Origin: Escherichia phage Eps7
Reading direction: 5' to 3' (one strand)
Sequence record: NC_010583.1
DNA length: 64,000 bases
The notes under the pieces were generated by a model that saw only the letters and a program-made list of their open reading frames with translations, did no database searches and was not told the DNA's origin. The position numbers and the translations under genes were made by a program. Of this stretch, positions 14,083 through 25,992 are shown in pieces; position 1 is the stretch's first letter, and the number at the start of each line of letters is the position of its first letter.

Positions 14083-14511
14083 ATGTTCGATAATCTTTTC
14101 ATGAAAGAGGTAAACCCTATGCTCCTCAACTTCTGGCGATCTCTCCCTGATGGTATGTATAATGAAACCATCAATCTGCTCAAGATTTGGTGTGAGAATA
14201 ACGATATCTTCTTATCCTTTAAAGGCCCACTAGAGGAAGCTCCGTGTATTGGAGTTAGCGTGGATTTAGGGGAGGGAGTAGAAGAGATTGTAGACTGGAA
14301 AGAACTAGATGAAATGGGTCTGGTTTTTGCCTTGAACCATAAGCTGTTTATGCCTGCAAATCACCGTCTTATTGTAAACTATCGCACTGGTGAAGCTCCT
14401 GCTTTCCAGGTAAATGAACGGGAGGGCTGGTCATATTCGCCCGAAGAAGTAAATGAGGGGATTCAGAAACTTCGTCGTTTCGGGTATATGATCCCAGGTT
14501 TAACTGCTTAA
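14083..14511 (+). CDS. hypothetical protein, tandem paralogue A
   Basis: shares W-EL-EMGL-ALN ... TGE-P ... R-GY-PGL pattern with the next ORF. Confidence 0.55.
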   Translation: MFDNLFMKEVNPMLLNFWRSLPDGMYNETINLLKIWCENNDIFLSFKGPLEEAPCIGVSVDLGEGVEEIVDWKELDEMGLVFALNHKLFMPANHRLIVNYRTGEAPAFQVNEREGWSYSPEEVNEGIQKLRRFGYMIPGLTA

Positions 14512-14520
14512 GGAGGCAGA

Positions 14521-14916
14521 ATGGAACAAGTATTTTGGCGTCAGATAGATCCTAGTTTGGTAGAGCGTGCTGAGGGGCTCCTTGCACGTTGGTTGGGGGT
14601 TGACAAGGTTAGTGTAACATTTCCGTTTACTTCTGTAACAGACCCTAGTGTAGGTGTCTTTGTGGACGAAGATGAAGATGATGGTTGGGAAGCTGACTGG
14701 AATGAATTGTCCAGTATGGGCTTGATTGTTGCCCTCAACTTCTCTATATTCCACCCACGTGGTTTAGCTATTACACGTGATCCCGAAACCGGTGAATCCC
14801 CTTATCTTTTGCAAGTAGAAGATGATATTTGGGAGTACACCGAAGATATTCTCGAAGAAGCTAAAGGTCAATTAAATCGCATTGGGATCTATGTTCCAGG
14901 CCTAAATGATGATTGA
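14521..14916 (+). CDS. hypothetical protein, tandem paralogue B
   Basis: paralogue of 14083..14511; AAGGAGG RBS. Confidence 0.55.
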   Translation: MEQVFWRQIDPSLVERAEGLLARWLGVDKVSVTFPFTSVTDPSVGVFVDEDEDDGWEADWNELSSMGLIVALNFSIFHPRGLAITRDPETGESPYLLQVEDDIWEYTEDILEEAKGQLNRIGIYVPGLNDD

Positions 14917-14939
14917 TTTTCATTAGTCCAATCCTGATT

Positions 14940-14967
14940 ACCGAGTCATTTTGGCTCGGTTTTCTCT
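14940..14967 (+). terminator. rho-independent terminator
   Basis: ACCGAG-TCATTTTGG-CTCGGT followed by TTTCTCT. Confidence 0.6.
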
Positions 14968-15010
14968 GTGCTCAAAGACACTGATAGCACCTTACGGAAA
15001 AATTTTACTT

Positions 15011-15038
15011 GCAGGATGGTCAAAATCTTGATATAATA
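15011..15038 (+). promoter_or_regulatory. T5-type promoter with extended -10 (TGATATAAT) and downstream ATTTATATTGAATTGAGAGAC box
   Basis: sequence match to the promoter family; no ORF follows for ~500 nt. Confidence 0.6.
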
Positions 15039-15533
15039 TTTATATTGAATTGAGAGACATTAGTAAAAATTGATTTTGCTAATTTTTCTTGTTTACAATC
15101 CGCAATACGGAACAGTTAGGCTGCCCCATTAAGGGTTGTTTTAACTATTACTAGTGTTTATACTGCATTAGTTAATTATCAATTAAGTGATCTGCGTACC
15201 CTGAATTCGGAAAGGTAAATCCAAACCGTGCATATTTAGCTCGTTATATAGGCAGAGCTTTATATGGGGGTGCGAACGAAAAGAGCAGCGAATGGTGACA
15301 CGTCCAGTAGCCACCTACCAATAGGATAGTGAGGGCAATCAGAATCGGCTTAGCGGCCAATGACCTAGGTTCTGATCTGGATAAGAGTTAAGAGAGCGCA
15401 GCACTGAGGTATGATAACTTATTCATACTGCTTGATGATGATTAATGTTTGTGTAAATGGTAGTAATAGTTGTTCTATTCTTTTGAATAGTCCTAAAGAA
15501 AGATATTCGAATAACCAACATAGGAGTATTGTT

Positions 15534-18323
15534 GTGTTCTCAATCCTACAAGGTCACGCAGGATTTTCCAGAGATAAAGCTACTGGCATCTGGAAAGAGA
15601 TCAAAGTGGAAGATTACACCTTTGCAAAGCGATTCTCTAAAGAGCATCCAGAAGGTAAACCAGCTTCCATGCCCTTCAAATTTGATGTACTTGAAGAACT
15701 TGACCCGCAAAACCTTGCTGAAATGTTACCTATCATGCGTCGTCTTACCAAAGACCCGCATATTGTAGCTATTCGTGGTAAATGTTTAGCCCCAAAAGAT
15801 AATGTGCGTCGTACCAGGGGAAACTTTAACGTATCCAATCCTAGTCATATTATTGCTATGGACGTGGATGGTATTGTAGATACTGGTGGCTATGACAAGT
15901 TTAATCTTGTTGGCATGGCACGTCATATTATTAAGATGTTGAATAGTATTAGTGAGGATATGTTTCCTCTTGATGCAGGGTTTATTGCCCATGCATCGTC
16001 TTCGGCTGGATTAAAACCAGGTATCCGAATGCACTTAATGCTAGAATCTAATGTCAAGGTAACGCAGGGACAGTTAAAGTTCTTATTTACATCTATCAAT
16101 GATAGTAGTAAGCAAAAGTACGGCTTTGATATTGCTGACTTAGCTTATTATTCTTCTGTTCAGCTTCACTATTTCGCAGATCCCTTATTTGATGATGGTA
16201 TAGTCGATCCGTTTAAAGCGGAGAATAAACCACGTCTTGTGTATGTTAAGGGTTCGAAGGTAAATCTACCTAATAACCTAGTTGACTTTGAAACAACTAG
16301 AGGTGAGTTTAAAGAAGAGTTCTACTCCTTACTTGACCAAATTAAAGGCAAGAAGGCTGCATCTGATAAAGTGGAAGAAACCATCAGCGAACTAGAAGAA
16401 GCTGAGGATGGAGTGTACCTGCGTATTATTCCAAAACTTTATCACAGAGCGTTAGAAGATGGTGTTGACTTTACGTGGTTAGAACGTGAAATTAAACCAG
16501 CTTTATCTGAGTATATTGCGACTAAAGATAATAGTCGTAATATTCAAGATTACTTTAATAACGGTCGTAAGCAGGCTCTCAAAGCCTTTGTAAATAACTC
16601 CAAACGTGAGATTCCACCAAACTTAAAAGGTGTACCATTAAAACGTCTAGACACAGATTCTCCACCAGAAGTTCCATACCTGAAAATTAACATTGTACCA
16701 CCAAAAGGACATTTAACATTTGTTAAGGCAAGTCTTGGTACGGGTAAAACTACCGCAGTAACTAAGTGGCTAGATGCAGGTGTTCTTCCAGGAAACTTTA
16801 TTGCAATCACAAATACTAGGGCACTTGTATCTTCTAACGCGAAGAAATTCGGTGCTGGCCAGTATGATAAGTCAGTTGATATGCTGAACTTCAAACGTGG
16901 TGCCATTGATCGTATGTCTTCAACTATTCACTCTATCCATAAGTTCAAGAGCTTTGTGGGTCAGATTGATACGATCTTTATTGATGAATGTGACGCAGTA
17001 ATGAATGATCTGTTATTCGCTCCGGTTGTTAAAAACCGTCGTGAATGTATTCAGGTTCTTCGTGATATCCTTATTACTGCTAAAACTGTTATCTTATCCG
17101 ATGGTGATATCAGTGCAGAAACGATTGAAGCCTATGGTTCTTTGATTGATTTTGATAAACCAGTCGCATTTTATAATCACCACCGTAAAATGCTGGCGAA
17201 AGCTCATGCTTATGAATTCCCTGATGAATCCAGTATTTGGGTTGCACTTCAAACATCTTTAGAGATGGGGGAGAAATCAATCCTAGTATCTGACTGTGGC
17301 CCGGATGAACTGAATGAGAAGGGAATGGCATTACGTCGTAATACTGGTGCGTTAGTTAAAGAAATTCACTCAAACTCTACGTCTGATGTAGATATCCGAC
17401 GTATTCTGGATTATACAACTAATGAGCTAATTGATCAACAGATTGATTGTTTATTATGTAGTCCATCTGTAACGAGTGGTGTTGACTTTAACTATTTTGA
17501 TAACGTATTCGTAATCACTAGAACCTCAAACCAAGCGCCAAACATGCGTTTTCAAGCAATCAGGCGCGACCGTGGTGCTCAGAACATTTATTATTTTATT
17601 GATAAATCTACGAGTGGATTTTCTGCGGGTTCCGAGCAATATAATATTGACGAAGGTTGGATTGAGTTAGCCCAACAACTGTACGCACGTCGTCGTGAGC
17701 TGGAATCTAGAAACTATACCAGTACTTTGCGGTATTATCTTCTCGATCAAGGTGCAACTATTGATATTTTCAGTGAAAGCTGGGGAACTATCGAAGGTGC
17801 AGGCAAAGAGTATACAGAAGAGCGAATCAAAGCTATTTTGCACTCAACTCCTGAATATTGCGCACCACGTCATGCAGACGCATATGAAGCTAAATTGCTT
17901 CTGGTTCGCTATTATCATCTGGATTCTATCAAAGATGTAACAGTGGAACATGTTGAACAGTATATCAAGGATAAACCGAATGATCGAGCTGCATTTTTCC
18001 ACAAGATGCACGACATGTTCTGGGAAGATATTAAAAAGTGTTCAAACGTAACAATCAAACCGTTTATCGAAGCTCTTAAGAATAAGAAGAAGGATTTCTT
18101 CCTTAAGACAGGTCAGAGCGCTAACCCAAAATATGCTCGTATGTATCTTGGCATGATGGGTATCGGTAAAGATCTGGATACGGAAAAGATTGTGGACTGG
18201 TACAGAACTTACTGTAAGATCGAATGTATGCCGATTCCAGTTAAGTTTATGACAGACGAAGAACGTCAGATGCACGAGGAAGCTCTTGCTGAATTGGGAG
18301 CTAGAAATGACAGTGAAGAATAA
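15534..18323 (+). CDS. replication helicase (SF2 ATPase) with an N-terminal primase-polymerase-like domain
   Basis: Walker A ASLGTGKTT, DExD box FIDECD, motif VI QAIRRDRGAQ, N-terminal AMDVDG; likely start GTG 15534 with AGGAG RBS (track ORF starts 15411). Confidence 0.75.
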   Translation: MFSILQGHAGFSRDKATGIWKEIKVEDYTFAKRFSKEHPEGKPASMPFKFDVLEELDPQNLAEMLPIMRRLTKDPHIVAIRGKCLAPKDNVRRTRGNFNVSNPSHIIAMDVDGIVDTGGYDKFNLVGMARHIIKMLNSISEDMFPLDAGFIAHASSSAGLKPGIRMHLMLESNVKVTQGQLKFLFTSINDSSKQKYGFDIADLAYYSSVQLHYFADPLFDDGIVDPFKAENKPRLVYVKGSKVNLPNNLVDFETTRGEFKEEFYSLLDQIKGKKAASDKVEETISELEEAEDGVYLRIIPKLYHRALEDGVDFTWLEREIKPALSEYIATKDNSRNIQDYFNNGRKQALKAFVNNSKREIPPNLKGVPLKRLDTDSPPEVPYLKINIVPPKGHLTFVKASLGTGKTTAVTKWLDAGVLPGNFIAITNTRALVSSNAKKFGAGQYDKSVDMLNFKRGAIDRMSSTIHSIHKFKSFVGQIDTIFIDECDAVMNDLLFAPVVKNRRECIQVLRDILITAKTVILSDGDISAETIEAYGSLIDFDKPVAFYNHHRKMLAKAHAYEFPDESSIWVALQTSLEMGEKSILVSDCGPDELNEKGMALRRNTGALVKEIHSNSTSDVDIRRILDYTTNELIDQQIDCLLCSPSVTSGVDFNYFDNVFVITRTSNQAPNMRFQAIRRDRGAQNIYYFIDKSTSGFSAGSEQYNIDEGWIELAQQLYARRRELESRNYTSTLRYYLLDQGATIDIFSESWGTIEGAGKEYTEERIKAILHSTPEYCAPRHADAYEAKLLLVRYYHLDSIKDVTVEHVEQYIKDKPNDRAAFFHKMHDMFWEDIKKCSNVTIKPFIEALKNKKKDFFLKTGQSANPKYARMYLGMMGIGKDLDTEKIVDWYRTYCKIECMPIPVKFMTDEERQMHEEALAELGARNDSEE

Positions 18324-18540
18324 AAAGTGGGAAACAAGGAAGTTTCCAGTAAAAGAACGTAAAACTTCTGTTTACGATACTGCGGAGAAACTATGTAGGG
18401 TTGTACCACCTCGTCTCGCTGGCATCCCTAATGTCTCCATATGGTTACTTAAACAACGGAAGACTCGTGTGTCTCTTCGCATTGGCTTTGAGTTAGATAA
18501 AGTCTATGCTGAACTTGCTTCTTTGCTCAAAGAATCATAA
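18307..18540 (+). CDS. hypothetical basic protein (~77 aa)
   Basis: small ORF overlapping the helicase 3' end. Confidence 0.35.
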   Translation: MTVKNKKWETRKFPVKERKTSVYDTAEKLCRVVPPRLAGIPNVSIWLLKQRKTRVSLRIGFELDKVYAELASLLKES

Positions 18541-18549
18541 AAATTTTAT

Positions 18550-18578
18550 TTGCTTTCAGGAAAAATTTTCTGTATAAT
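18550..18578 (+). promoter_or_regulatory. T5 PN25-type strong early promoter
   Basis: ATTTGCTTTCAGGAAAAATTTTCTGTATAATAGATTCATAAATTTGAGAGAGGAGTT matches the PN25 sequence as I recall it. Confidence 0.85.
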
Positions 18579-18609
18579 AGATTCATAAATTTGAGAGAGG
18601 AGTTTAAAT

Positions 18610-19314
18610 ATGGCTGGTTCTCGTAGAAAGAAACTTATCCATGAAATCCCTGATGAAACCTTTAAAAAGGTTATTGAACATCTGGAGAATGGTGGTACTA
18701 AGAAAGCAGCCTGTGAGATGCTCGGTGTTTCTTCTAACCCAACTATGGAACGAATGATCGAGGAATGGAGAGATCGTCAGGTTCAAGTTGCGGAAATGAA
18801 AAAGAAGAAGCGCGGAACACTAATTGAAGGTGTTGAGCTTGCAAACGTAATTGAACAGTATCTTTCTGGTGATTCTTTTGAAGAAATCGCAGATCGTAAC
18901 TATCGTTCTGTAGCGATGATTAAATCTGTTCTGGAACGTTATGGTGCTCTGCTTCGTTTAAACGATATTGTTGATCCATTGAATCCTCCATTGATTCCTG
19001 ATGATGCAATGGCAGAAGAATTTGAAGTTGGCGAACTTGTTTGGGTTCCCGGCTACCAGTGTATTGGTGAAATCAAGAAAGCAATGACTAACCCAGTTGG
19101 CTGCTACCGTGTTTGGTTGTTATCAGAAGGTAAACAACAGAACGTTCACTATATGCACTACGAATTAGCTTCTGTTAAACATCTGGAAAAGCTGGGAGTT
19201 GATGTTAAAGCTCTGGGCTTTAAATGGAGCCGTGAAGAAGTTATCACGTTGGTTAATGAAGCTGTTAAAGCCGCCCTGAAACTCGATAAAGAGAAAGGAA
19301 AACGTCGTGAGTAA
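18610..19314 (+). CDS. putative HTH DNA-binding protein
   Basis: N-terminal HTH-like GGTKKAACEMLGVS; 234 aa, directly downstream of the PN25-like promoter. Confidence 0.55.
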   Translation: MAGSRRKKLIHEIPDETFKKVIEHLENGGTKKAACEMLGVSSNPTMERMIEEWRDRQVQVAEMKKKKRGTLIEGVELANVIEQYLSGDSFEEIADRNYRSVAMIKSVLERYGALLRLNDIVDPLNPPLIPDDAMAEEFEVGELVWVPGYQCIGEIKKAMTNPVGCYRVWLLSEGKQQNVHYMHYELASVKHLEKLGVDVKALGFKWSREEVITLVNEAVKAALKLDKEKGKRRE

Positions 19315-19540
19315 ACTAACTGATCTGTTAAAAGCTGGAGACGTGAAATATCTCCAGCGAGATAGCTGGAAGAACACCCGAGACTTTACATTCTTGTTAA
19401 AATTTGATGTAGATAGTGACACTGTTAAGCTATATGAGTGGCCTAGTATACACTGCGTACGCCCGATAGTAACAGTAGTTAATCTTAGTCTAGAAGAAGC
19501 TCTGGCCGACGATTGGGAGATCGTTGAACTAGATGTGTAG
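19307..19540 (+). CDS. hypothetical protein (77 aa)
   Basis: overlaps the preceding stop. Confidence 0.4.
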   Translation: MSKLTDLLKAGDVKYLQRDSWKNTRDFTFLLKFDVDSDTVKLYEWPSIHCVRPIVTVVNLSLEEALADDWEIVELDV

Positions 19541-23567: not shown

Positions 23568-23599
23568 AAGGGGAGGGGGCTATGCTCCTTCCCCTTTTT
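23568..23599 (+). terminator. rho-independent terminator
   Basis: AAGGGGAGG...CCTTCCCCTT followed by TTTTG. Confidence 0.7.
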
Positions 23600-23620
23600 G
23601 CATTTAGAAGGCACGAAAGC

Positions 23621-25105
23621 GTGCAAAGGAGAATGACCTTGTTTAACGTGCAAGCTGTAGTGTTGAAGATGCTTCTCGCTTCTGAACAGAAGCAAATAGC
23701 ATTGGAAACATTCTCAAAACTGCATAAAGATCATTTTAATGACGCTTTCTCCTCAATTTACCAAGCCGTCCAGAATTATTATAAGAAATATAACGCAATG
23801 CCGTCCATTGACGCACTGATGCTTGAGGCCAATAGGAACGCCCGCCTTTCTCAAGCTCTTGTCGTCTTAGCTAACACTCAAATTCCAGAAGTGAGCATGG
23901 AACAGGCGCTTGAAGTCCTAGAAGCCGAATATACACAGGATCTATTCCTGAAACTTCTAGAAACAGACGTGCTTCAAGATTTAACAATGCTGGATCAGGG
24001 AGAAATTCTCAACCGAGTTGCCTCCCTTCACTTAAAATTAGAAGAGAAAGTAACGAATACTGGAAAGGTATTCAACGCAGACACAATGCGTATTTTCCAG
24101 AGAGAAGAAGATACCAAACTGAACTTGATCGCTCTTGGTATTTGTAATGAGTTCGACGCTCAAATTGGTTTAGCTCGCACAGAAACGTTACTGCTTGGTG
24201 GTTGGCGTGGTACTGGTAAATCCATTATCTGTTCAAACATACAGGTTCAGCAATATTTGAATGGAGACATTGCTCCATATTTCTCAATTGAGATGAAGGA
24301 GCACGAAGTGTTTAGACGTAATCTGGCTATGTTAGCTGGAGTATCTGCATTAGCAATGCGTAATAACACTCTTGAAGGTGCTGCTCTGTTGAGATTAGCC
24401 AGAACTAGGGCTAGAATGTTTAATGGTGGTGAAGAGCTTTTCGATAACTTCGTTAAGCAATACACTATGGCTAAAATGAGTGACTTCTATGATATGGAAA
24501 GTAAACTCCTTGAAGGCTATGAGCTTCACACTCCTATGATCATCGTTTACGATCCTGAACTGTCTATTACGACGGTTGACGTAGAATTAAATAAACTAGT
24601 TGCTAAATATGGTGATAAGGTTACTGTAGCTCTTCTAGACTATATTAACCAAACAAGACTTCCAGATTCAAAGACCATTGACATGTATGACTGGAAAGAA
24701 CAGATGGTTGTTAGTTCATCTTTCAAATCTATCTGCCAGAAACATAACGTGGCTGGTGTTGCCCCTTACCAGATTGACCAAGATGGTAGAACGCGTATGT
24801 CTAAAGGGATTCTTGATTCCGCAGATATGGCTGCTAATCTTAACGCTGCAAAAGCTGATAATGGTCAAGGTGCTATTATGTTTGATTTCGTTAAGACTCG
24901 TTCCTCTGATAGTGTGAAGTTTATGCCTAAGATGAACTGGGAAACTCTACGAATGGATAACACTACCAACCTAGCAATGGAAGATATTGCGCAAATGGAA
25001 GCTGAGTTCGTTATTCCTATTGAAAAGGATAAACCAGCTCAACCTAAACGTGCTAAGAAAGACAAAGCTGAAAATTCAACAGGTGAACAGGCCAGCGATA
25101 TATGA
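23621..25105 (+). CDS. replicative helicase (DnaB-like / RecA-fold ATPase)
   Basis: Walker A LGGWRGTGKS and RecA-like core; start taken as GTG 23621 (track ORF starts inside the terminator). Confidence 0.75.
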   Translation: MQRRMTLFNVQAVVLKMLLASEQKQIALETFSKLHKDHFNDAFSSIYQAVQNYYKKYNAMPSIDALMLEANRNARLSQALVVLANTQIPEVSMEQALEVLEAEYTQDLFLKLLETDVLQDLTMLDQGEILNRVASLHLKLEEKVTNTGKVFNADTMRIFQREEDTKLNLIALGICNEFDAQIGLARTETLLLGGWRGTGKSIICSNIQVQQYLNGDIAPYFSIEMKEHEVFRRNLAMLAGVSALAMRNNTLEGAALLRLARTRARMFNGGEELFDNFVKQYTMAKMSDFYDMESKLLEGYELHTPMIIVYDPELSITTVDVELNKLVAKYGDKVTVALLDYINQTRLPDSKTIDMYDWKEQMVVSSSFKSICQKHNVAGVAPYQIDQDGRTRMSKGILDSADMAANLNAAKADNGQGAIMFDFVKTRSSDSVKFMPKMNWETLRMDNTTNLAMEDIAQMEAEFVIPIEKDKPAQPKRAKKDKAENSTGEQASDI

Positions 25106-25992
25106 GTAGAATAACAGAACTACTTGATCTGAAAGGCATTGAATACAAAGACACAGGTGGGGATATCCTCATCTGTTGTCTCAATCCAGATCATGATGAT
25201 AAACACCCAAGCTTGCGTATTGACCCTGAATCAGGTATTATGCATTGCTTGAGCTGTGGCTTCGGTAGAGGAATACCGAGCATTTACCATTATTTTAATG
25301 AGACTCAGTACAGACAGTCACCAAGATTGTCACAAGTACGTAAAAAGATTTCAGAGATTAGGAATGGATCTACGAATCTTGCAATTCCTGAATCTGCTTA
25401 CCTTTTCGAAGGTGATTTCCGAGGTATCAGTTCTAAGACCTTGAAGAAATATTTTGCTTTCCAACATCAAGCAGACTGGGAAGGCAGAATTGTATTCCCA
25501 ATAACAGATGCTGTTGGACGCAATATCCTATTCTTGGGACGTTCTATAAACAGTTCTGCCCCTCCTAAATACTTAGTAAAACCAAAACAAGTTTCACCAC
25601 CGATTTTCCCTGTACGATATAATACACCAGTTCTTATTCTAGTTGAAGGTATCTTTGATATGTTAAATCTAGAAGATAACGGTGTGGATTATGCTTCTTG
25701 CTGCTTTGGTACACATCAGTTTACATCTGATAACATTGCCGATAAGTTCAGTCCTTACATTATTGCTGGAGTAAGAGTAGTAGTTATCCTATTAGATAAT
25801 GATGCCTCTGGTAATAAAGCTGCGCAAGCATTGGCGAAGCTAATTCGTACAAAAACACGTTTAACACCTGTAATTGGTAACTTCCTTCTTCCAGAAGGCA
25901 AAGACCCAGGTGATTTAAATAAAGAAGAGATCGATATGTTGGCTCAACGTATTGAAATTTTAGTTGCCGAATCGCTCAAAGATTTGGTATAA
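25102..25992 (+). CDS. DNA primase (DnaG-like: zinc-binding domain plus TOPRIM)
   Basis: CLNPDHDDKHPSL..HCLSCGFG Zn motif; TOPRIM LVEGIFD and LLDNDASG. Confidence 0.85.
   Translation: MSRITELLDLKGIEYKDTGGDILICCLNPDHDDKHPSLRIDPESGIMHCLSCGFGRGIPSIYHYFNETQYRQSPRLSQVRKKISEIRNGSTNLAIPESAYLFEGDFRGISSKTLKKYFAFQHQADWEGRIVFPITDAVGRNILFLGRSINSSAPPKYLVKPKQVSPPIFPVRYNTPVLILVEGIFDMLNLEDNGVDYASCCFGTHQFTSDNIADKFSPYIIAGVRVVVILLDNDASGNKAAQALAKLIRTKTRLTPVIGNFLLPEGKDPGDLNKEEIDMLAQRIEILVAESLKDLV

What the first reader, a model, noticed from the sequence alone, without database searches (positions are those of the whole stretch)
15534..18323. Large replication protein combining a primase-polymerase-like N-terminus with an SF2 helicase
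The N-terminal ~350 aa contain an AMDVDG acidic motif reminiscent of primase-polymerase catalytic sites, followed by Walker A, DExD and motif VI. A dedicated DnaG-like primase is also encoded at 25102-25992, so the phage would carry two priming systems. The track ORF start at 15411 is probably not the real start.
Basis: inference. Interest (0 to 1): 0.45.

Follow-up and report, generated by a model that had tools for sequence, protein, structure and literature searches.

The report
Phage T5 helicase with primase-like head
This gene is the T5-family "replication origin binding protein" (the D2 helicase studied in phage T5), and its uncharacterised N-terminal third has the fold and catalytic residues of an archaeo-eukaryotic primase-polymerase, so these phages probably carry a second, overlooked priming enzyme alongside their ordinary DnaG-type primase.

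Summary
The window comes from a T5-like phage. The gene at 15534-18323 is the ortholog of T5 gene T5.108, 94% identical in protein. This is the "D2" SF2 helicase that Wong et al. characterised in 2013. The true start is GTG 15534, preceded by a GGAG ribosome-binding site; the ORF start at 15411 is spurious.

Residues 1-245 form an archaeo-eukaryotic primase (AEP) fold:
- The AlphaFold model has pLDDT 93.
- The AEP catalytic motifs are nearly invariant in 89 relatives down to about 20% identity: D110xD112, S155..H167 and D202.
- Distant relatives of this domain are fused to PriCT-2, D5-type and VapE-type helicase modules, the usual partners of AEP primases.

Residues 390-929 are closest to herpesvirus UL9. 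A DnaB-like helicase and a DnaG-like primase are confirmed downstream, and all three genes are also present in a distant Vibrio relative.

The AEP domain matches no Pfam model and is not an All3500-family member. I found no paper describing it. Primase activity is inferred, not shown.

Verdict: a new member or variant of a known kind (primase-helicase replication initiators), of moderate interest.

The parts
15411..15533 (+). Spurious 5' extension of the mechanical ORF; non-coding leader
   Evidence: The PHROG 3712 profile starts at residue 42 of the long ORF. T5 has a 1-nt indel here that breaks the frame. Relatives start at the codon equivalent to 15534.
15523..15526 (+). Ribosome-binding site GGAG, 7 nt before the start codon
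   Evidence: Sequence. AGGAG is invariant in five phages from three genera.
15534..18323 (+). Gene for the 929-aa AEP-helicase protein, ortholog of T5 T5.108 'replication origin binding' (the D2 helicase of Wong et al. 2013). GTG start, TAA stop.
   Evidence: 94% identity over 926 aa to T5 T5.108. 99% DNA identity to many Epseptimavirus/Tequintavirus phages. Walker A K405 has the same numbering as the K405E mutant in PMC3632103.
15534..16268 (+). AEP (primase-polymerase-like) catalytic domain, aa 1-245
15861..15869 (+). AEP motif I, D110-V-D112 (metal ligands), at the end of strand 104-114
   Evidence: D110 and D112 are each kept in 88/89 relatives. Strand position comes from the model. Aligns with the DxD of PrimQH primases in hhalign.
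15996..16034 (+). AEP motif II, S155-S-S-A-G159 ... H167
   Evidence: S155 83/89, G159 86/89, H167 82/89 with the remaining 7 Arg. H167 aligns with the motif II His of All3500/PrimQH primases.
16137..16139 (+). AEP motif III, D202
   Evidence: Invariant in 89/89. Aligns with the motif III Asp of All3500/PrimQH.
16158..16235 (+). Conserved block V-Q210-x-H212-Y-x-A-x-P217 ... D225-P226 ... R234; candidate equivalents of AEP 'motif IV' nucleotide-binding residues
   Evidence: P217 89/89, R234 85/89, P226 85/89, Q210 67/89, H212 63/89. Motif IV is defined in PMC5862659. hhalign places the PV1 motif IV opposite Q210-Y213, so which residue is the true equivalent is unresolved.
16281..16658 (+). All-helical linker domain, aa 250-375. 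It contains the 'HTH' predicted at 308-329 by Wong et al. and sits where PriCT or helix-bundle domains sit in other AEP primases.
16701..17633 (+). UL9-type SF2 helicase core (two RecA-like domains), aa 390-700. Walker A at 16728-16754, Walker B DECD at 16977-17000, motif VI at 17550-17576.
   Evidence: Pfam Herpes_ori_bp 21.9 bits against a cut-off of 20. The family profile hits HSV-1 UL9 chains at E 2e-9. NCBIfam CyRepA1 E 1.6e-35. Foldseek top hit is HSV-1 OBP 9hgj, E 3e-14. ATPase and helicase activity of the T5 ortholog are abolished by K405E (PMC3632103).
17634..18320 (+). C-terminal all-helical domain, aa 701-929; function unknown, candidate DNA-binding or oligomerisation region
   Evidence: Helices 709-927 with pLDDT above 90. 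Conserved within the D2 group. No family hit.
23582..25105 (+). Context: DnaB-like replicative helicase (T5 D6 ortholog)
   Evidence: Pfam DnaB_C and PHROG 19. T5 annotation.
25102..25992 (+). Context: DnaG-like primase (zinc ribbon plus Toprim), the phage's second priming system
   Evidence: Zn_ribbon_DnaG, DNAG_N and Toprim_2 above the Pfam cut-offs; PHROG 47 at 1.2e-56. The same gene is present in Vibrio phage Rocket24 next to its D2-type protein.

Best explanation
The gene encodes a four-part replication protein:
- aa 1-245: an N-terminal archaeo-eukaryotic primase (AEP, primase-polymerase-like) catalytic domain;
- aa 250-375: a helical domain in the position of the PriCT or helix-bundle module of other AEP primases;
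- aa 390-700: a UL9-type SF2 helicase core;
- aa 701-929: a helical C-terminal domain.

Proposed mechanism. The protein acts as a self-contained replication initiator. The UL9-like motor opens or translocates on DNA; helicase activity with a 3'-5' bias has been shown for the T5 ortholog. The fused AEP domain then synthesises a primer on the exposed single strand, as plasmid and phage primase-helicase initiators do. The separately encoded DnaB-like/DnaG-like pair then serves the moving fork and Okazaki priming.

Shown here or in the literature: gene identity and start; helicase activity of the ortholog; AEP fold in a high-confidence model; conservation of the catalytic residues; co-occurrence with DnaG and DnaB.

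Inferred: that the AEP domain is catalytically active; that it primes at an origin; and the division of labour with DnaG.
For: Identity: 94% to T5 T5.108. The numbering of Walker A K405 and of the Pfam PF02399 region matches the D2 helicase of PMC3632103.

Catalytic motifs: D110/D112 88/89, H167 82/89, D202 89/89, S155 83/89, G159 86/89, R234 85/89, in relatives 19-79% identical. In hhalign, motifs I, II and III fall in register with bona fide PrimQH/All3500 primases.

Architecture: distant homologs of the domain are N-terminal to PriCT_2, PriCT_1, D5_N, DUF5906 and VapE helicase modules. They match PHROG families named DNA primase.

Helicase.

Conservation of the whole arrangement (AEP-SF2 protein plus DnaB plus DnaG plus PolA) across Demerecviridae: 904 phage records and Vibrio phage Rocket24.

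Precedents for primase-SF2 helicase initiators: N15/PY54 RepA, PAU gp68, and All3500 AEPs fused to UL9-like helicases (PMC4889955; PMC5862659).
Against: - No primase or polymerase assay exists for this protein. Wong et al. assayed only ATPase, helicase and DNA binding.
- No Pfam or NCBIfam AEP model and no PDB sequence profile detects the domain. hhalign to All3500 gives only 2.7% probability.
- No zinc finger or PriCT domain was detected in the linker (the run was crude).
- The phage already has a complete DnaB/DnaG pair, so a second primase is not obviously needed.
- No origin, iterons or specific DNA binding were identified near the gene.
Confidence: 0.6

Rival explanations
1. The N-terminal domain is a genuine AEP homolog but no longer a polymerase. 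It serves as a DNA-binding or origin-recognition module (or a protein-interaction module) for the helicase, in the way the origin-binding domains of SV40 T antigen and papillomavirus E1 derive from inactivated nucleases. All priming is then done by the DnaG-like primase.
For: - The phage has a complete DnaB/DnaG pair.
- The protein is annotated as an origin-binding protein, yet no other DNA-binding domain was identified.
- No PriCT or zinc module was detected (the run was crude).
- The motif IV equivalent is ambiguous.
Against: Inactivated enzyme domains normally lose their catalytic residues. Here both metal-binding aspartate motifs and the motif II histidine are almost invariant across relatives down to about 20% identity, including proteins with quite different helicase partners.
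Confidence: 0.2
2. The AEP domain is active but works as a PrimPol-type repriming, gap-filling or lesion-bypass enzyme rather than in initiation. It could, for example, restart synthesis at the natural single-strand interruptions of T5-type genomes. The helicase would deliver it to stalled or nicked DNA.
For: - The best structural match is human PrimPol, a repriming enzyme, and LigD/Prim-PolC repair polymerases rank high.
- T5 DNA carries site-specific nicks, annotated as a misc_feature in NC_005859.
- The D2 helicase acts as a monomer or low oligomer on short tailed substrates, as repair helicases do (PMC3632103).
Against: - The closest helicase relatives are initiators: UL9 and CyRepA1 plasmid Rep.
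- Relatives of the AEP domain are fused to replicative-type SF3/VapE helicases.
- The gene sits in the early replication cluster.
Confidence: 0.15
3. The resemblance to primase-polymerases is fortuitous. The N-terminus is an unrelated alpha/beta domain that happens to carry acidic residues.
For: - There is no significant sequence-profile hit to any curated AEP family or to PDB AEP sequences.
Against: - Two independent structure-comparison methods return only AEPs among alpha/beta hits.
- Three catalytic motifs are present in the right order and on the right secondary-structure elements.
- The motifs align in register with bona fide AEP families.
- Domain partners are typical of AEPs.
- Matching PHROG families are labelled primase.
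Confidence: 0.05

Closest known systems
Bacteriophage T5 T5.108 'replication origin binding protein', the D2 helicase of Wong, Sayers & Sanders 2013 (AAU05245)
   Same: Ortholog: 94% identical over 926 aa, with the same GTG start and the same genomic position. The T5 protein is a DNA-dependent ATPase and a bipolar helicase with a 3'-5' bias, inactivated by K405E (PMC3632103).
   Different: Nothing substantive differs in the protein. The published description covers only the helicase core, a predicted HTH (308-329) and coiled coils, and leaves aa 1-390 unassigned. In T5 an HNH endonuclease gene follows the gene; that gene is absent here.
Herpes simplex virus 1 UL9 origin-binding protein (PDB 9hgj/9hgi; Pfam PF02399)
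   Same: UL9 is the closest solved structure to aa 385-929: Foldseek E 3e-14, TM 0.53 normalised to the query, four orders of magnitude better in E-value than the next helicase family. The family profile hits UL9 at E 2e-9. Both are SF2 enzymes with a 3'-5' bias and a role in replication initiation.
   Different: UL9 has no AEP domain; herpesviruses keep their AEP primase (UL52) in a separate helicase-primase complex. Sequence identity is only about 13%. Whether the C-terminal domain of this protein corresponds to the UL9 origin-recognition domain was not resolved. Sequence-specific origin binding has not been shown for the phage protein.
AEP superfamily primase-polymerases (human PrimPol, pRN1 ORF904, poxvirus D5/E5 AEP domain, ASFV C962R, LigD PolDom, RepB')
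   Same: They share the fold, the three catalytic motifs in the same order, and an N-terminal position ahead of a helical module and a helicase, as in D5, C962R and ORF904.
   Different: No curated AEP family model detects the domain. The motif II context (SSSAGxKPGIRxHLWF) and the block after motif III (VQxHYTAxPxF) are family-specific. The helicase partner is SF2 rather than the usual SF3.
All3500-family AEPs fused to UL9-like SF2 helicases, and phage PAU gp68 (Kazlauskas et al. 2016, 2018)
   Same: Same architecture: AEP, then a helical region, then a UL9-like SF2 helicase. Distant relatives of the D2-type domain have the same range of alternative helicase partners (RepA-like, VirE/VapE, D5) that the paper lists for the All3500 family.
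   Different: The D2-type AEP domain is not an All3500 member. hhalign gives 2.7% probability, and its signature strings are absent from the held text of the published PrimPol-PV1 supplementary files. The 2016 survey stated that viruses have either an AEP or a DnaG primase, with RM378 the only exception; T5-like phages have both.
Toprim-primase-like plus SF2 helicase initiators: cyanobacterial plasmid CyRepA1 and phage N15/PY54 RepA
   Same: The helicase core is homologous to CyRepA1 (NCBIfam NF042913, E 1.6e-35, model positions 2-316). These are proven replication initiators with a primase-like domain N-terminal to the same type of helicase (PMC10079941; PMC4889955).
   Different: Their N-terminal module is Toprim/DUF3854 (DnaG-type), not AEP. 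The NCBIfam score of 123 is below the equivalog cut-off of 200. Similarity to N15 RepA itself was not tested here.

Membership tests
AEP (archaeo-eukaryotic primase / primase-polymerase) superfamily | AEP catalytic fold (RRM-like core) | tested here: met
AEP (archaeo-eukaryotic primase / primase-polymerase) superfamily | Motif I: hhhDhD at the end of a beta strand | tested here: met
   IIAMD110VD112 ends strand 104-114. Each Asp is kept in 88/89 relatives.
AEP (archaeo-eukaryotic primase / primase-polymerase) superfamily | Motif II: sxH (small residues, then His on a strand) | tested here: met
   S155SSAG159...IRMH167L lies on strand 164-176. H167 is His in 82/89 and Arg in 7/89.
AEP (archaeo-eukaryotic primase / primase-polymerase) superfamily | Motif III: hD acidic metal ligand | tested here: met
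   D202 is invariant in 89/89 and aligns with the motif III Asp of All3500/PrimQH.
AEP (archaeo-eukaryotic primase / primase-polymerase) superfamily | Significant match to a curated AEP sequence model (Pfam, NCBIfam) or to a PDB AEP sequence | tested here: not met
   No Pfam hit at E up to 10 for aa 1-399. No NCBIfam hit. The domain profile finds no AEP in PDB sequences.
AEP (archaeo-eukaryotic primase / primase-polymerase) superfamily | Template-dependent primer synthesis or polymerase activity | not testable with these tools
   No assay is reported in PMC3632103. Biochemistry is needed.
All3500-like AEP family (PrimPol-PV1 supergroup, Kazlauskas 2018) | Profile similarity to family members; motif IV 'Rh' about 10 residues after motif III | tested here: not met
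   hhalign of the D2-type domain (87 sequences) against 15 published All3500 domains gives prob 2.7%, E 0.017. Against All3500 plus PrimQH it gives prob 59%, E 9e-5, over motifs II-III only. The family signature strings are absent from the held text of the paper's supplementary files. Opposite PV1 motif IV the D2 family has QxHY, and a conserved Arg (R234) lies 32 residues after D202.
UL9-like SF2 helicases (Pfam PF02399 Herpes_ori_bp) | Match to the family model above the gathering score | tested here: met
   21.9 bits against a cut-off of 20, aa 432-574 of the long ORF, covering model positions 48-197 of 820 only. The family profile hits UL9 chains at E 2e-9.
UL9-like SF2 helicases (Pfam PF02399 Herpes_ori_bp) | SF2 motifs I, II (DExD/H) and VI, and a two-RecA-domain fold closest to UL9 | tested here: met
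   GTGKT405, DECD and QAIRRDRG are present. In the D2-group alignment G402, G404, K405, D484 and E485 are invariant, and R677 and R679 are nearly invariant. The Foldseek top four hits are UL9 chains, E 3e-14 to 3e-12.
UL9-like SF2 helicases (Pfam PF02399 Herpes_ori_bp) | ATP-dependent DNA unwinding | not testable with these tools
   Shown experimentally for the 94%-identical T5 protein (PMC3632103). Not assayed for this phage.
UL9-like SF2 helicases (Pfam PF02399 Herpes_ori_bp) | C-terminal sequence-specific origin-binding domain and a defined origin | tested here: inconclusive
   The Foldseek alignment to UL9 spans 535 columns, but TM is only 0.53 (query) and 0.38 (target). No iterons or repeats lie in or near the gene. 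No DNA-binding family hit in aa 701-929.
CyRepA1 plasmid replication protein (NCBIfam NF042913, equivalog domain) | Score above the curated cut-off; Toprim-related DUF3854 N-terminal domain | tested here: not met
   123 bits against a cut-off of 200. Only the helicase part matches, model positions 2-316 of 595. The N-terminus here is AEP, not DUF3854.

The most novel reading that the evidence does not exclude
The D2-type N-terminal domain defines an unrecognised AEP family. All T5-like phages (more than 900 sequenced genomes) would then carry two unrelated primases, which runs against the published generalisation that a virus has either an AEP or a DnaG primase. On this reading D2 is a one-polypeptide origin opener and first-primer synthase, combining a UL9-like motor with an AEP. 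It starts T5 replication and then hands over to the DnaB/DnaG fork machinery. The fusion would also tie together two proteins that herpesviruses keep separate, the UL9-type initiator helicase and an AEP primase, which bears on the shared ancestry of tailed-phage and herpesvirus replication modules.
Probability: 0.35. Interest if true: 0.6.

Novelty: new member of a known kind. Interest (0 to 1): 0.5.

Why it matters
T5 is a classic model phage whose replication origin and initiation mechanism are still undefined. Its D2 protein has been studied only as an odd "bipolar" helicase with 390 unexplained N-terminal residues. Recognising an intact AEP active site there gives a concrete, cheap experiment: primer-synthesis assays and D110/D112/D202 mutants.

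It also explains why the protein is so large, and it corrects hundreds of GenBank annotations that say only "replication origin binding". It adds a very large phage family as a further exception to the "AEP or DnaG, not both" rule drawn from the 2016 global survey of dsDNA virus replication genes.

This is not a new kind of system. Primase-helicase initiators, including AEP-SF2 fusions, are already known.

Tried and rejected
- Pfam and NCBIfam scans of aa 1-399 at E up to 10 gave no AEP family, only a sub-threshold DUF445 match.
- HMM searches of PDB sequences with the full-family profile and with the domain-only profile found UL9 for the helicase part and nothing for the AEP domain.
- The search for homologous proteins with the domain alignment returned only five close fragments with no useful names.
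- A cluster look-up of distant relatives returned 'hypothetical protein' or 'predicted P-loop ATPase'.
- Membership of the All3500 AEP family was rejected: hhalign 2.7%, and the signature strings are absent from the held text of the published supplementary files.
- Fetching RSF1010 RepB' as a reference AEP failed because the record is not in the collection.
- A search for an origin (iterons, repeats, AT-rich unwinding element) in 14500-19400 found only an AT-rich promoter zone and chance-level repeats.
- Rfam gave no family for the long leader.
- Literature searches for any description of an AEP or primase-polymerase domain in T5 D2/OBP found none in the open-access library. Subscription papers and database entries such as InterPro could not be checked.
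- R234 was first taken as 'motif IV'. That was downgraded to ambiguous after hhalign placed PV1 motif IV opposite Q210-Y213.
Full report
WHAT THE LOCUS IS

The window is a T5-like phage genome. The 2913-bp ORF is 99% identical to many Salmonella and Escherichia Epseptimavirus/Tequintavirus phages, where it is annotated 'replication origin binding protein'. The protein from 15534 is 94% identical over 926 residues to T5 gene T5.108, 'replication origin binding', 928 aa.

Wong, Sayers and Sanders (NAR 2013, PMC3632103) characterised this T5 protein under the name D2 (AAU05245). It is a DNA-dependent ATPase and a 'bipolar' helicase with a 3'-5' bias, and K405E abolishes both activities. Their coordinates are Walker A at 399-406, Pfam PF02399 at 392-532 and a coiled coil at 907-928. 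These coincide with my numbering from 15534: ASLGTGKT405T lies at 399-407. So the finding concerns a known, partly characterised protein. Its first 390 residues have been left unassigned apart from a predicted HTH at 308-329.

START CODON

- GTG 15534 lies 7 nt after GGAG.
- The PHROG 3712 profile begins at residue 42 of the long ORF.
- T5, Klebsiella phage vB_Kpn9-P3 and Providencia phage PR1 start at the homologous codon. The Klebsiella phage has ATG there, and AGGAG is invariant.
- T5 has a 1-nt indel inside 15411-15533 that destroys the extension.

Annotated starts vary between records: EH3 starts at window 15438 and chee24 is truncated.

N-TERMINAL DOMAIN

An exhaustive HMMER search of 1.84 billion representatives with aa 1-399 found 93 relatives.
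- About 35 are D2-type proteins, 900-1050 aa.
- The rest match only aa ~30-250 and have other architectures.
- Among 60 of these relatives scanned, Pfam finds VapE-like (12), DUF5906/D5-type SF3 helicase (8), PriCT_2 (6), D5_N (3), Pox_D5 (2), PriCT_1, AAA_25 and ResIII. These are the standard partners of AEP primase domains.
- In P0049 the D2-type domain (53-218) is followed directly by PriCT_2 (259-343).
- 52 of 61 match PHROG 16950 'DNA primase'.

Alignment shows D110 and D112 in 88/89, D202 and P217 in 89/89, S155 in 83/89, G159 in 86/89, H167 in 82/89 (the other 7 Arg) and R234 in 85/89. This is the AEP pattern: motif I hhhDhD, motif II sxH, motif III hD.

An AlphaFold2 model built with this alignment has mean pLDDT 93.3. 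It puts D110/D112 at the end of strand 104-114 and H167 on strand 164-176.
- The interleaved non-AEP hits are helical repeats with high rmsd that match the helical linker.
- The 50 best Foldseek PDB hits are all AEP enzymes: LigD PolDom (prob 0.99), ASFV PrimPol, RepB', S-2L PrimPol, Prim-PolC, herpes primase and D5/E5.

No curated sequence model sees the domain. The assignment therefore rests on fold, motifs and domain architecture.

WHICH AEP FAMILY

Kazlauskas et al. 2018 (PMC5862659) described All3500-family AEPs fused to UL9-like SF2 helicases. I took 15 All3500 and 4 PrimQH primase domains from their supplementary table and ran hhalign against an 87-sequence D2-type domain alignment.
- Probability was 2.7% for All3500, 3.9% for PrimQH, and 59% (E 9e-5) for the two combined.
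- The short alignments nevertheless place DxD on DxD, H167 on the motif II His and D202 on the motif III Asp.
- The D2-type signature strings SSSAG, QPHY and HLWFW do not occur in the held text of their supplementary files.

I conclude that this is a separate AEP family, unnamed as far as I could determine, and not an All3500 member. Their 'motif IV' arginine aligns opposite Q210-x-H212-Y213. The nearly invariant R234 lies further downstream, so the equivalent of motif IV remains unresolved.

LINKER, HELICASE AND C-TERMINUS

- aa 385-929 was modelled at pLDDT 92.2. Its best PDB matches are four chains of HSV-1 UL9 (E 3e-14 to 3e-12, TM 0.53 to the query, 535 columns), ahead of BLM, Mss116 and RecQ at about 1e-10 to 1e-9.
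- Sequence evidence agrees: Pfam Herpes_ori_bp just above threshold, the family profile against UL9 at E 2e-9, and NCBIfam CyRepA1 at 1.6e-35 but below its cut-off. CyRepA1 is a plasmid initiator with a Toprim-related DUF3854 domain in front of the same helicase type (PMC10079941).

SECOND PRIMING SYSTEM

- 23582-25105 is a DnaB-like helicase.
- 25102-25992 is a DnaG-like primase with a zinc ribbon, DNAG_N and Toprim.
- The trio of AEP-SF2 protein, DnaB and DnaG, followed by PolA and the D10 helicase, is kept in the distant Vibrio phage Rocket24, where the N-terminal region (aa 30-399) is 34% identical.
- 904 phage records, of 105-130 kb wherever the complete genome is listed, carry the N-terminal domain.
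- The 2016 survey of dsDNA virus replication genes stated that viruses have either an AEP or a DnaG homolog, with RM378 the only exception (PMC4889955). T5-like phages would be a further and very large exception.
- I found no paper describing an AEP domain in this protein. A few GenBank records call it 'DNA primase C'. I could not check InterPro or subscription journals.

MECHANISM

Most likely (0.6), the protein is a primase-helicase initiator. The UL9-like motor exposes single-stranded DNA, and the fused AEP lays down a primer. DnaB and DnaG then run the fork. Helicase activity is shown for the ortholog. Everything about priming is inferred from fold, invariant catalytic residues and analogy with N15 RepA, CyRepA, poxvirus D5, ASFV C962R and pRN1 ORF904.

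The rivals are:
- an inactivated AEP used for DNA binding (0.2), which is disfavoured by the invariance of the catalytic residues;
- a PrimPol-type repriming or repair role (0.15);
- chance resemblance (0.05).

No origin was found. There are no iterons in or around the gene.

VERDICT

The protein is already known as a helicase. The AEP assignment appears to be unreported, but it fits a known kind of system (primase-helicase initiators, including AEP-SF2 fusions). Interest is moderate, at 0.5. It gives a directly testable hypothesis for replication initiation in a classic model phage, corrects widespread annotation, and bends a published generalisation. It does not reveal a new type of system.

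Noticed in passing
window 14917-15533: An unusually long (~620 nt) non-coding leader lies upstream of the gene. It has a terminator-like hairpin at 14940-14960 and an AT-rich promoter zone at 14900-15200. An RNA fold of 15100-15540 is more stable than shuffles (z -3.7) and is closed by a long-range inverted repeat (15143-15163 / 15451-15471). A 600-715 nt intergenic gap is kept at this position in T5, chee24, Klebsiella vB_Kpn9-P3 and Providencia PR1. Conserved blocks include GGCTTAGCGGCC and a CTATTC-TTTT-GAATAG hairpin just before the RBS. There is no Rfam match, and a 5-sequence alifold gives only weak covariation. It could be a structured 5'UTR, a regulatory RNA or an origin region.
   Followed up: partly
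window 18610-19314 (+): This 234-aa protein has only an HTH_28-type hit and no helicase motifs. Yet it belongs to PHROG 3611 'helicase' and is the ortholog of T5.111, labelled gene 'D2', product 'helicase', in NC_005859. The D2 helicase characterised by Wong et al. is T5.108 (this finding). The 'helicase' label on the small protein looks like a gene-name mix-up that has propagated into databases.
   Followed up: partly
window 18323-18610 and 25102-25105; L002 12319-12837 and 19615-20148: T5 carries HNH homing-endonuclease genes directly after the OBP gene (hegI) and between the DnaB-like D6 gene and the primase gene (hegJ). Both are absent from this phage, where the DnaB-like stop overlaps the primase start (ATGA at 25102).
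   Followed up: no
window 14083-14511 and 14521-14916 (+): Two adjacent small ORFs (142 and 131 aa) have visibly similar sequences, for example ...DW.EL..MGL..ALN...F.P...TGE.P...V....W.Y......E....L.R.G...PGL. They appear to be tandem paralogs of unknown function, corresponding to T5.106/T5.107.
   Followed up: no
window 18286-18540 (+): An 84-aa ORF overlaps the 3' end of the OBP gene by about 38 nt (TTG start in the mechanical list). It is annotated as a hypothetical protein with a later start in phage EH3 and as T5.110 in T5.
   Followed up: no
proteins P0037-P0093 (metagenomic and bacterial relatives): The D2-type AEP domain occurs outside phages of the T5 family, in proteins that sources name only 'hypothetical protein' or 'predicted P-loop ATPase'. 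One example is Paramagnetospirillum magneticum amb0656. No Pfam model covers the domain. It therefore appears to be an uncurated AEP family.
   Followed up: partly
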